Part shown: piece after piece, positions 21,884-22,531 of the stretch
Numbering within the stretch: position 1 is the first letter of the stretch
How the letters are laid out: every line of letters begins with the position of its first letter
The notes under the pieces: generated by a model
Database searches by the model: none
What the model was told of the DNA's origin: nothing
Seen by the model: the letters and a program-made list of their open reading frames with translations, nothing else
Assembly (NCBI GenBank): GCA_903935335.1
Contig: CAIZRG010000049.1
Span: forward strand, 51,759 to 115,758
DNA length: 64,000 nt
Direction of reading: 5' to 3'
DNA from: Oligoflexia bacterium
GTDB taxonomy: Bacteria > Bdellovibrionota > UBA1018
Made by a program: the position numbers and the translations under genes

Positions 21884-22218
21884 ACAGGTACCTTTTCGGT
21901 ATAATATTATATTTATAGCTCTTTTTCATGCGATCACCAAGATCATTCAAAAGATTCAGGAACTGCATCACGTTGATCTGGAAGAGATCAGGGAATCGTT
22001 CTACAGTTTTGATGGAAAAATGCAGGAAGAATCTAGAACCGAACATCAGCGATGTCTTTCAAAATTGTGGTTTATTTCTGATAACTGATAGCGGGAGACA
22101 ATTAAAAGTTGCCCTGTGTGAGAATGGGGATTCTTTGGAGCTATTGACCGCTTATGATCCTGACGAGAAGGATTTGAAATACTATGCAAAACTCAAAGAA
22201 AAAAATGTCAGAGAATGA
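21884..22218 (+). pseudogene. BrnT-like (DUF497) toxin gene, degraded: no start codon and an internal frameshift
   Basis: Frame A gives ELHHVDLEEIRESFYSFDGKMQEESRTEHQRCLSKLWFISDN-stop. Frame B continues ...DSGRQLKVALCENGDSLELLTAYDPDEKDLKYYAKL. Together they match the BrnT core (HGVSFEEA...EERRFI...RIISARKATKKERKLYE). The 3' end overlaps the antitoxin start. Confidence 0.5.
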
Positions 22219-22531
22219 AATTTTGGTAGCACACGAGGAAGCAGAAGCTAATAGACATGTCCGTTTCAGGACTATGAGCCAGGAGGAGACTGATGCAATT
22301 CTCTCTAAGACCGGGTTGCAGTCCATTAATTTAAGGTTACCCACTGATGTGATCGAGAAACTAAAAAATAAAGCTAAAAAAGAGGGGCTTAAATATCAGC
22401 CATACGTTAGAAAGCTTTTAATTCAGCACGTAAACATTGATGCGAATGAAAAAGACAAATTACGTGCTGACATCAGAGAGTTAATCAAGGAAGAACTCGA
22501 CAAACGACCCAGTTACAAGATTAAAAATTAA
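22184..22531 (+). CDS. BrnA-like (COG3514/DUF4415) antitoxin
   Basis: 115 aa. INLRLPTDVIEKLKNKAKKEGLKYQPYVRKLL matches the BrnA RHH-like C-terminal motif (RLd.dvl..fK..a...G.gYQT.iN..L). Confidence 0.6.
   Translation: MQNSKKKMSENEILVAHEEAEANRHVRFRTMSQEETDAILSKTGLQSINLRLPTDVIEKLKNKAKKEGLKYQPYVRKLLIQHVNIDANEKDKLRADIRELIKEELDKRPSYKIKN

What the first reader, a model, noticed from the sequence alone, without database searches (positions are those of the whole stretch)
21884..22531. BrnT/BrnA-like TA locus with decayed toxin and intact antitoxin (copy 1)
The toxin reading frame lacks a start codon and needs a +1 frame switch near 22085. Both pieces still align to the DUF497/BrnT core. The overlapping antitoxin (115 aa, RHH-like GLKYQPYV motif) is intact. 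This suggests toxin inactivation with the antitoxin retained, possibly as an anti-addiction or regulatory gene.
Basis: partly seen in the sequence, partly recalled or inferred. Interest (0 to 1): 0.5.

Follow-up and report, generated by a model that had tools for sequence, protein, structure and literature searches.

The report
Decaying BrnT-like toxin–antitoxin gene pair
This is a small two-gene "toxin–antitoxin" cassette in which the toxin gene has recently been killed by two single-base mutations while the neighbouring antitoxin gene is still whole. This is a common way for such selfish cassettes to decay, so the finding is real but ordinary.

Summary
Bases 21915-22218 encode, in two reading frames, a ~100-aa protein of a defined family. 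A profile built without the window's own sequence matches the frame-0 piece at profile positions 5-56 (E 1.7e-14) and the frame-1 piece at positions 57-97 (E 4.9e-10), exactly contiguous. One extra base inside GATAACT (22080-22086) causes the shift. The start codon is ATA where the nearest relatives have ATG or GTG. The overlapping 115-aa ORF (22184-22531) is intact and passes Pfam's threshold for PF12441 (CopG antitoxin), not for BrnA/DUF4415.

All 11 related loci examined carry an intact toxin followed by a homologous antitoxin. The family is also found on small plasmids and in Pseudomonas phages.

The frameshifted sequence is identical in four metagenome assemblies, so an assembly error is unlikely. 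All near-invariant toxin residues survive, so the decay is recent. Selection for the antitoxin is therefore not shown.

A second, unrelated BrnT relic lies 1.7 kb away. Verdict: an ordinary decaying TA module of a poorly annotated BrnT-like clade.

The parts
21878..21910 (+). Candidate promoter/operator of the operon. It contains TTGCTG (21878-21883), a 16-nt spacer and TATAAT (21900-21905). The 15-mer TTGCTGACAGGTACC (21878-21892) is conserved in the closest relative L003 as TTGCTAATAGGTACC.
   Evidence: The consensus scan lists CTGACA-18-TATTAT at 21881-21910 with 10 of 12 matches, but the number of promoter-like sites in the region is not above the shuffled expectation. The conserved 15-mer is seen in the DNA alignment with L003 and occurs only once in the window. 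Function is inferred, not shown.
21915..21917 (+). Lost start codon of the toxin gene: ATA where relatives have ATG or GTG.
   Evidence: Protein alignment A1 shows M at this column in P0006, P0007 and P0008. L068 reads MAPFVIP. L003 has GTG GCT CCA TTT here, plus an upstream ATG that aligns with CGG 21897-21899 in the window. There is no ATG/GTG/TTG in frame between the stop at 21882-21884 and about 22020.
21915..22082 (+). Toxin pseudogene, N-terminal part (frame of 21915): strand 1, helices 1-2 and the first core strand, ending ...KLWFIS(D/E).
   Evidence: Family HMM without the window row: profile positions 5-56, E 1.7e-14. The representative search found 80 homologues with E<1e-3, and the best (P0004, 53% identity) spans the join.
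22080..22086 (+). Frameshift site GATAACT, which contains one extra base. The ancestral sequence was GAA-ACT (E-T, as in the family consensus WFISET) or GAT-ACT. Frame 0 then runs into TGA 22086-22088 and TAG 22089-22091.
   Evidence: Profile positions 56 and 57 abut across the frame change. L003 and L068 read WFISETD here. The site is not a homopolymer.
22084..22218 (+). Toxin pseudogene, C-terminal part (+1 frame), TDSGRQLKV...NVRE plus the stop codon. It overlaps the antitoxin start by 35 nt.
   Evidence: Family HMM profile positions 57-97, E 4.9e-10. Gene callers call only a 68-aa hybrid ORF here (P0001).
22168..22172 (+). Shine-Dalgarno-like AAGGA, with 11 nt between it and the antitoxin ATG.
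   Evidence: Read from the sequence. L003 has GAGGAGGA at the same distance from its antitoxin ATG. Inference only.
22184..22531 (+). Intact antitoxin gene, 115 aa. It has an N-terminal region (about residues 1-44), a ribbon-helix-helix domain (about residues 45-85: SINLRLP, helix, GLKYQPYVRKLL helix) and a C-terminal charged helix.
   Evidence: PF12441 CopG_antitoxin scores 34.7 bits against a cut-off of 28, while BrnA PF14384 scores 14.9 against 26.1. It is 62% identical to the antitoxin of the intact L003 pair and 70% to P0003, aligned from residue 1. It matches phrog_17810 at E 5e-10.
22600..23120 (-). Context: remnant of an IS3-type transposase (rve fragment) directly downstream of the cassette.
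   Evidence: The 72-aa ORF at 22820-23038 (minus strand) hits PF00665 rve at E 6e-7, below the gathering score. L066 carries a longer HTH_21+rve gene at the same place.

Best explanation
This is a chromosomal type II toxin-antitoxin cassette next to an IS remnant, and it is in the course of decay. The host is an uncultured Bdellovibrionota-like bacterium.

The intact design, seen in all relatives examined, is a toxin-first operon. A ~100-aa toxin with a BrnT-like (BECR/RelE-superfamily) fold is followed by an overlapping ~110-aa antitoxin. The antitoxin's N-terminal part presumably binds the toxin, and its ribbon-helix-helix domain presumably represses the operon.

In this genome the toxin gene is dead. 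Its start codon is now ATA, and one inserted base at 22080-22086 throws the reading frame into two stop codons, separating the two helices from most of the beta-sheet core. The antitoxin gene is whole and keeps its own ribosome-binding site. It is probably still made, and at most acts as a partner-less RHH repressor of its own promoter.

The inactivation is recent. The pattern of dead toxin and live antitoxin is what the order of permissible losses predicts: losing the antitoxin first would be lethal. It need not reflect selection for the antitoxin.

Shown: family membership of both pieces, the two lesions, the intact antitoxin ORF, the conserved gene pair and the BrnT-like predicted fold. Inferred: RNase activity of the ancestral toxin, neutralisation and autoregulation by the antitoxin, and present-day expression.
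For: The two pieces match contiguous halves of the family profile. 80 homologues of about 95-105 aa were found, and the best spans the join at 53% identity.

The start codon is lost relative to P0006-P0008, L068 and L003.

Homologues hit PF04365 over nearly the whole profile but below threshold. A profile-profile alignment to the two BrnT sequences is colinear over 89 columns with pairwise E 1.2e-4.

The antitoxin passes the PF12441 threshold.

In 11 of 11 related loci (5 metagenomic, 6 viral) an intact toxin is followed on the same strand by a homologous antitoxin. The same pair sits on plasmids pNL14 and a P. multocida plasmid, annotated '...hydrolase' or 'DUF4258' plus 'CopG family antitoxin', and in a P. 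aeruginosa phage next to cI. The COG2929 (DUF497) + COG5304/COG3514 pairing, including pNL14, was described by Makarova et al. 2009 (PMC2701414).

The cassette sequence is base-for-base identical in assemblies ERZ27229619, ERZ18637247, ERZ27313254 and ERZ27313262.

Recent decay: all 11 near-invariant family residues are retained. The toxin/antitoxin identity ratios against relatives (0.83-1.08) lie within the range of intact pairs (0.84-1.14).
Against: No direct Pfam, NCBIfam, PADLOC or PDB sequence hit for the toxin itself.

Four of the five residues needed for Brucella BrnT RNase activity (D6, E7, K9, R41; PMC5086665) are not conserved in this family by the hhalign mapping. Only the E78 equivalent and the KH motif are. 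The ancestral biochemical activity is therefore inferred from the fold only.

No member of this clade has, to my knowledge, been tested for toxicity.

Expression of the antitoxin is unverified. The promoter call is not above chance. The antitoxin structure model was poor (pLDDT 59).

The four assemblies may sample one clonal population, so fixation across the species is not shown.
Confidence: 0.85

Rival explanations
1. The orphan antitoxin is kept by selection. It would serve as an anti-addiction or immunity gene that neutralises related BrnT-like toxins arriving on phages or plasmids, or as a domesticated RHH regulator. The toxin decay would then be the route to that state, not mere erosion.
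For: The toxin family is carried by P. aeruginosa temperate phages, IMG/VR viral contigs and many small plasmids, so incoming cognate toxins are plausible. A second BrnT-type relic 1.7 kb away shows the same pattern of a dead toxin and an intact RHH ORF, and there the toxin is more eroded. The antitoxin N-terminus and RHH motif are conserved against relatives.
Against: Toxin inactivation here is recent (two lesions, all invariant residues kept), so an intact antitoxin is expected without any selection. There is no population variation to measure constraint: the sequence is identical in all assemblies. Antitoxins are usually specific to close cognates, and the phage and plasmid toxins are only 32-38% identical to this one.
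Confidence: 0.12
2. The frameshift and missing start are assembly or sequencing artefacts, and the toxin is in fact intact.
For: The window comes from metagenome-type assemblies. Single-base indels are a known error class.
Against: There are two independent lesions. The indel is not in a homopolymer (GATAACT). The sequence is identical in four assemblies from at least two projects.
Confidence: 0.02
3. The toxin is still made at a low level by recoding: initiation at a non-canonical ATA or ATT codon, plus programmed +1 ribosomal frameshifting at AAC-TGA.
For: An in-frame stop directly after the shift site superficially resembles the prfB arrangement. All functional residues are still encoded.
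Against: The P-site AAC cannot re-pair in the +1 frame (ACU). No internal Shine-Dalgarno stimulator precedes the site. None of the 11 relatives uses a frameshift. Two rare events would have to combine.
Confidence: 0.01

Closest known systems
BrnT/BrnA of Brucella abortus (PF04365 / PF14384; PDB 3U97) and the Salmonella Typhimurium BrnT-antitoxin complex (PDB 7VD7)
   Different: Sequence similarity is below Pfam's threshold: homologues score 14-27.6 bits against 34.5, and the window's own sequence has no hit. The FEWD-E-K N-terminal motif and the Arg41 equivalent needed for BrnT RNase activity are absent. The antitoxin belongs to PF12441, not PF14384, and has an extra C-terminal helix after the RHH. 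Here the toxin is a pseudogene.
COG2929(DUF497)-COG5304 predicted toxin-antitoxin system of Makarova, Wolf & Koonin 2009, e.g. on Neisseria lactamica plasmid pNL14
   Same: pNL14 is named in that paper as carrying the operon. Its toxin gene matches the repaired window toxin (34% identity over 88% of the length) and is followed by a 'CopG family antitoxin'. It has the same two families, order and size.
   Different: The plasmid pair is intact and sits on a 5.8-kb plasmid. The window's pair is chromosomal, next to an IS remnant, and its toxin is dead. RefSeq names the pNL14 toxin 'ADP-ribosyl-(dinitrogen reductase) hydrolase', which has no support from fold or family.
DUF4258 (PF14076) toxins of the RelE/ParE superfamily
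   Same: 13 of 39 homologues give sub-threshold PF14076 hits, and RefSeq labels one plasmid homologue 'DUF4258 domain-containing protein'. Same BECR fold class.
   Different: The DUF4258 gene order is antitoxin-first, and its fusions are with MqsA-type antitoxins (PMC11980606). This family is toxin-first with an RHH antitoxin. All scores are below the gathering threshold.
Orphan antitoxins / 'anti-addiction' chromosomal TA relics (e.g. chromosomal ccd of Erwinia chrysanthemi, Saavedra De Bast et al. 2008; cited from my own knowledge, not read here)
   Same: A chromosomal antitoxin gene survives without a working cognate toxin, and relatives of the toxin circulate on plasmids and phages.
   Different: No evidence here that the antitoxin protects against anything. 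In the Erwinia case the chromosomal toxin is still functional.

Membership tests
Unnamed BrnT-like toxin clade (alignment A2; phrog_18652) | Full-length colinear match to the family profile (consensus ..KL..KH.V...EV.E.F.....R..H....WFISET..GR.LKVVF....LKTAYEP...E...Y) | tested here: met
   A profile without the window row matches positions 5-56 (E 1.7e-14) and 57-97 (E 4.9e-10) in two frames. The repaired protein matches phrog_18652 at E 3.5e-11 over positions 10-95 of 97. 11 of 11 near-invariant residues are present.
Unnamed BrnT-like toxin clade (alignment A2; phrog_18652) | Followed on the same strand by a homologous ~110-aa RHH antitoxin, usually overlapping | tested here: met
   11 of 11 related loci. 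The window overlap is 35 nt, against 26-44 nt in L003, L062, L063 and L068.
BrnT_toxin (Pfam PF04365 / DUF497 / COG2929) | HMM score at or above the gathering threshold (34.5 bits) | tested here: not met
   No hit for the repaired toxin or its pieces at E<=10. Homologues score 14.3-27.6 bits over profile positions about 8-76 of 77. JGI nevertheless labels P0005 'uncharacterized DUF497 family protein'.
BrnT_toxin (Pfam PF04365 / DUF497 / COG2929) | BrnT fold: two N-terminal helices packed on a four-stranded antiparallel sheet, plus a C-terminal helix | tested here: met
BrnT_toxin (Pfam PF04365 / DUF497 / COG2929) | Residues required for RNase activity in Brucella BrnT: Asp6, Glu7, Lys9, Arg41, Glu78 (PMC5086665) | tested here: not met
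   The hhalign mapping places D6 on a Ser or variable column, E7 on a variable column, K9 on a hydrophobic column and R41 on a variable column before the invariant Trp. Only E78 maps to a conserved E/D (Asp86 in the window). The mapping rests on a weak profile alignment (probability 27%).
BrnT_toxin (Pfam PF04365 / DUF497 / COG2929) | Toxicity on expression and neutralisation by the cognate antitoxin | not testable with these tools
   Needs expression of a repaired gene. No tested member of this clade was found in the literature searches.
CopG_antitoxin (Pfam PF12441 / COG5304) | HMM score at or above the gathering threshold (28 bits), with the RHH segment matched | tested here: met
   34.7 bits, E 3.1e-8, residues 45-80 matched to profile positions 42-77 of 79. 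Partner antitoxins of relatives score 23.9-29.7 bits.
BrnA_antitoxin (Pfam PF14384 / DUF4415 / COG3514) | HMM score at or above the gathering threshold (26.1 bits) | tested here: not met
   14.9 bits, E 0.035. NCBIfam BrnA_antitoxin_add scores 18.2 bits against a cut-off of 60.
DUF4258 (Pfam PF14076) | HMM score at or above 25 bits, and antitoxin-first gene order | tested here: not met
   No hit for the window toxin. The best homologue scores 24.1 bits. The gene order here is toxin-first, whereas the survey lists A/T for DUF4258.
Pseudogene (disabled toxin) | Loss of the start codon and interruption of the reading frame relative to intact homologues, reproducible in independent data | tested here: met
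   ATA where relatives have ATG or GTG, and a 1-nt insertion with two stops. The sequence is identical in four assemblies. Read-level data were not available.

The most novel reading that the evidence does not exclude
Two neighbouring BrnT-type cassettes (this one and the relic at 24196-24610) have both lost their toxins but kept their RHH antitoxins. This would be because the antitoxins are selected as a standing immunity against BrnT-like toxins delivered by phages and small plasmids, which demonstrably carry this toxin clade. The toxin clade itself would be an RNase with an active site different from that of BrnT, built on K13/H18/E24/R41/R61/K64.
Probability: 0.1. Interest if true: 0.5.

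Novelty: new member of a known kind. Interest (0 to 1): 0.22.

Why it matters
It matters little for biology at large. Toxin-first decay of chromosomal TA modules is well known, and this locus is a clean example of it.

There are two modest points of value.

First, the toxin belongs to a coherent clade that Pfam and NCBIfam do not capture. The clade is borne by plasmids and phages and has about 80 representative clusters at E<1e-3. RefSeq often misnames it 'ADP-ribosyl-(dinitrogen reductase) hydrolase'. Its fold is BrnT-like, but it lacks most BrnT catalytic residues. An experimental test of one intact member would settle what it does.

Second, for annotation of this genome, the 68/96-aa ORF called here is a frameshift artefact of a pseudogene and should not be called as a gene.

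Tried and rejected
- Direct Pfam and NCBIfam scans of the repaired toxin and of each piece gave only chance hits such as EF-hand and HECT.
- PDB sequence searches with the toxin and with the family profile found nothing.
- PADLOC found nothing for either protein.
- The word-indexed homology search with the toxin found only the genome's own 68-aa ORF. The exhaustive HMMER search was needed to find relatives.
- The search for related loci in genome contigs and metagenome contigs with the antitoxin alignment found no relative. With the 65-sequence toxin alignment it found no usable conserved stretch.
- P0003, the closest antitoxin relative at 70% identity, has no contig on record, so its toxin could not be inspected.
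- Structure prediction of the antitoxin from 3 sequences gave pLDDT 59. It was not used for a fold search.
- The Rfam scan of 20000-26000 found nothing in the locus.
- L066 looked at first like a divergent strain (98.7% identity), but all its differences lie in the IS part. The TA part is identical, so it gives no polymorphism data.
- Inverted-repeat search upstream of the toxin found no convincing operator palindrome in the window.
- dN/dS against L003 was not attempted, because 53-62% protein identity means synonymous sites are saturated.
- Programmed frameshifting was considered and rejected on codon-anticodon grounds and because all relatives lack a frameshift.

Full report
WHAT IS IN THE SEQUENCE

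On the + strand, frame 0 is open from 21885 and reads ...IALFHAITKIIQKIQELHHVDLEEIRESFYSFDGKMQEESRTEHQRCLSKLWFISDN. It then meets TGA (22086-22088) and TAG. The +1 frame continues TDSGRQLKVALCENGDSLELLTAYDPDEKDLKYYAKLKEKNVRE and stops at 22216-22218. Frame 0 has no ATG, GTG or TTG before an internal Met at about 22020. An intact 115-aa ORF (22184-22531) overlaps the end of the +1 piece by 35 nt.

IS IT MORE THAN CHANCE?

The word-indexed protein search found only the genome's own 68-aa ORF call (P0001). The exhaustive HMMER search of 1.84 billion representatives found 80 proteins with E<1e-3. Nearly all are 93-105 aa. The best (P0004, 104 aa, 53% identity, E 2.6e-24) aligns across the frame change.

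I built a profile from 64 homologues, leaving out the window's own sequence. Against the window's 1307 six-frame segments it hits the frame-0 segment at profile positions 5-56 (E 1.7e-14) and the frame-1 segment at positions 57-97 (E 4.9e-10). Nothing else scores below E 0.1.

The two halves abut exactly. The defect is therefore one extra base inside GATAACT (22080-22086). Relatives read WFISETD here (L003; L068). The site is not a homopolymer.

THE START CODON

In the alignment, the Met of P0006 (MSPFLV), P0007 (MPPFFI), P0008 (MAPFLI) and L068 (MAPFVI) falls on the window's ATA at 21915-21917 (I-A-L-F). L003 has GTG there, plus an upstream ATG that corresponds to CGG in the window. The gene therefore carries two independent disabling lesions, each a single-base event.

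IS IT AN ARTEFACT?

The antitoxin and the 68-aa hybrid ORF are on record from several contigs. L001 (ERZ27229619, a 431-kb contig) matches window 17205-27531 with zero mismatches. L002 (ERZ18637247, a different project) matches 17205-22666 with zero mismatches. L067 (ERZ27313262) is identical over its 653 bases. L066 (ERZ27313254) is identical from 20512 to 22702 and differs only in the transposase part downstream.

Four assemblies thus agree on both lesions. Read-level data were not available, and the four may sample one clone.

WHAT FAMILY IS THE TOXIN?

The repaired protein has no Pfam or NCBIfam hit and no PDB sequence hit, even with the family profile. Three indirect lines point to BrnT.

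(i) 26 of 39 homologues hit Pfam BrnT_toxin (PF04365) over almost the whole profile, but at 14-27.6 bits, below the 34.5-bit gathering score. 13 of 39 hit DUF4258, also below its threshold.

(iii) hhalign of the family profile against those two BrnT sequences gives a colinear 89-column alignment with pairwise E 1.2e-4 and probability 27%.

That alignment also shows the limits of the resemblance. Five residues are reported as important for BrnT RNase activity: Asp6, Glu7, Lys9, Arg41 and Glu78 (review PMC5086665). Only the Glu78 position is conserved in this family, as E or D. The K-H-G-V motif is shared.

The family has its own near-invariant set: K13, H18, E24, R41, W52, F53, T57, R61, L63, K64 and A79. 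PHROGs holds the family as phrog_18652, 'unknown function'.

I therefore file it as BrnT-like by fold and operon design, but not as a member of PF04365.

THE ANTITOXIN

The 115-aa ORF passes Pfam's threshold for PF12441 CopG_antitoxin (34.7 bits against 28; residues 45-80). It fails the threshold for BrnA PF14384 (14.9 against 26.1). Weak Arc and AvtR matches in the PDB fit a ribbon-helix-helix domain.

It aligns from its first residue with the antitoxin of the intact L003 pair (62% identity) and with P0003 (70%). This supports the ATG at 22184 rather than the Met8 start that some gene callers chose.

A three-sequence AlphaFold model was poor (pLDDT 59). It only suggests two N-terminal helices, the two RHH helices and a long C-terminal helix.

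COG5304 (= PF12441; this equation is from my own knowledge) and COG3514 are the two RHH partners of COG2929/DUF497 toxins described by Makarova et al. 2009 (PMC2701414). The antitoxin is thus the 'other' BrnT partner type, not DUF4415.

IS THE PAIRING REAL?

Contigs encoding P0004, P0005, P0006 and P0009 each show the toxin followed by a 107-111-aa gene that overlaps or abuts it and carries PF12441 signal. L068 from JGI metagenomes and six IMG/VR viral contigs show the same arrangement.

With my own toxin and antitoxin profiles, 11 of 11 loci have an intact toxin ORF directly followed on the same strand by a homologous antitoxin, at E 5e-15 or better.

In annotated records the pair appears in three settings. 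On Neisseria lactamica plasmid pNL14 it is annotated 'ADP-ribosyl-(dinitrogen reductase) hydrolase' + 'CopG family antitoxin'; Makarova et al. named pNL14 as carrying the COG2929-COG5304 operon. On a Pasteurella multocida plasmid it is annotated 'DUF4258 domain-containing protein' + 'CopG family antitoxin'. In Pseudomonas aeruginosa temperate phages it sits next to cI.

The toxin-first order agrees with BrnT and disagrees with DUF4258 in the RelE/ParE survey (PMC11980606). The window's copy is the only one of the twelve loci with a broken toxin.

HOW OLD IS THE DECAY, AND IS THE ANTITOXIN 'RETAINED'?

All eleven near-invariant residues are still encoded. The ratio of toxin identity to antitoxin identity between the window and four relatives (0.83-1.08) lies inside the range seen between intact pairs (0.84-1.14).

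The toxin has therefore accumulated no visible excess of changes, which means the inactivation is recent. An intact antitoxin is then expected by default. In addition, a cassette can only lose its toxin first. The data do not show selection for the antitoxin, and they do not exclude it.

CONTEXT

The window is bacterial chromosome, with HtpG, RecD2, Tex, LigA, RadA and GlpK. RadA is 60-69% identical to Bacteriovoracaceae, Oligoflexia and Bdellovibrionales MAGs, and no closer genome is in the GTDB representative set.

The cassette lies between an M15 peptidase gene and a remnant of an IS3-type transposase (22600-23120, minus strand). Beyond that remnant lie an LRR-protein gene and, convergent on the minus strand at about 24196-24610, a second TA relic unrelated in sequence.

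The toxin remnant of that second relic (IALRFEWDESKNKINRRKHGLWFEEAQSVFDD...EDRFIII/FTRKSIKQEVKSYEKRA) is a genuine PF04365 hit: 50.3 bits, profile positions 1-48 of 77. It has no start codon, and the beta-sheet core is deleted. It is followed by an intact 71-aa RHH ORF.

MECHANISM, WITH SHOWN AND INFERRED STEPS MARKED

Shown:
- Two genes of a conserved toxin-antitoxin pair.
- Toxin start lost and frame broken.
- Antitoxin ORF whole.
- BrnT-like predicted fold.

Inferred from established knowledge of type II systems and of BrnTA (PMC5086665; PMC11980606):
- The ancestral toxin was a translation-inhibiting RNase.
- The antitoxin's N-terminal part bound it.
- The RHH dimer repressed the promoter.

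Inferred from the sequence only:
- A promoter, TTGCTG-16-TATAAT, at 21878-21905. The 15-mer TTGCTGACAGGTACC is conserved in L003 and may be part of the operator. The scan's count of promoter-like sites is not above chance.
- A Shine-Dalgarno-like AAGGA at 22168-22172, which would allow antitoxin translation without coupling to the dead toxin.

VERDICT

The corrections are that the toxin is a BrnT-like clade unassigned in Pfam, and that the antitoxin is CopG/PF12441 rather than BrnA/DUF4415.

The finding is an ordinary, recently decayed TA module. Interest is low. The only mildly novel element is the uncharacterised, misannotated toxin clade with a BrnT fold but a different set of conserved polar residues.

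Noticed in passing
window 24196-24610, minus strand: A second TA relic, unrelated in sequence and convergent with this one. It has a canonical DUF497/BrnT remnant (FEWDESKNKINRRKHG...; PF04365 50.3 bits, profile positions 1-48 of 77) with no start codon and the beta-sheet core deleted. An intact 71-aa RHH ORF follows at 24196-24411 (weak PF12441 and PF14384 hits). It shows the same pattern of dead toxin and live antitoxin, but is more eroded.
   Followed up: partly
window 22600-23120, minus strand; L066 2089-3067: An IS3-type transposase remnant (72-aa rve fragment) lies directly downstream of the antitoxin. Assembly L066 (ERZ27313254) is identical up to 22702. It then shows about 6% divergence, about 445 extra bases and a 195-aa HTH_21+rve ORF. 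This is either another IS copy joined during assembly or a strain with a more intact IS.
   Followed up: partly
window 23240-24076, plus strand: A 278-aa leucine-rich-repeat protein with a hydrophobic N-terminus lies between the two TA relics and next to the IS remnant. The whole stretch 21612-25063 looks like a small mobile or accessory patch between an M15 peptidase gene and a YggS-like (Ala_racemase_N) gene.
   Followed up: no
window 22199-22205: An A7 homopolymer sits in the toxin/antitoxin overlap, at codons 6-8 (KKM) of the antitoxin. Gene callers disagree on the antitoxin start: 115 aa from 22184 against 108 aa from Met8 at 22205 (P0002). Homologues support the longer form.
   Followed up: partly
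plasmid and phage records H1-H30 (e.g. NC_010926.1 573-857): Intact members of this toxin clade are named 'ADP-ribosyl-(dinitrogen reductase) hydrolase', 'ADP-ribosyl protein', 'DUF4258 domain-containing protein' or 'hypothetical protein' in public records. The hydrolase name has no support from fold or family and looks like a propagated misannotation.
   Followed up: partly
proteins P0019, P0020, P0039, P0040, P0045: Very long proteins (532-4294 aa) match parts of the toxin at E 1e-7 to 1e-5, four of the five in several stretches. In four of them the best match falls on the toxin's beta-sheet segment (query residues about 39-89); in P0045 it falls on the N-terminal segment (residues 4-37). 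They may be repeat proteins or polymorphic-toxin-like fusions. Not examined.
   Followed up: no
L062 about 2040-2090; L063 about 1140-1190: Relatives carry TTACAA/TTGTAA inverted repeats, and a TATACA-like box only about 8-10 nt before the toxin ATG. This suggests operator palindromes and very short or absent leaders in this family. The window has TATAAT ending 9 nt before the dead ATA start.
   Followed up: no
window 25034-25117, plus strand: A weak Rfam match to the ATPC RNA motif (27.5 bits against a gathering score of 45, E 0.035). Probably chance.
   Followed up: no
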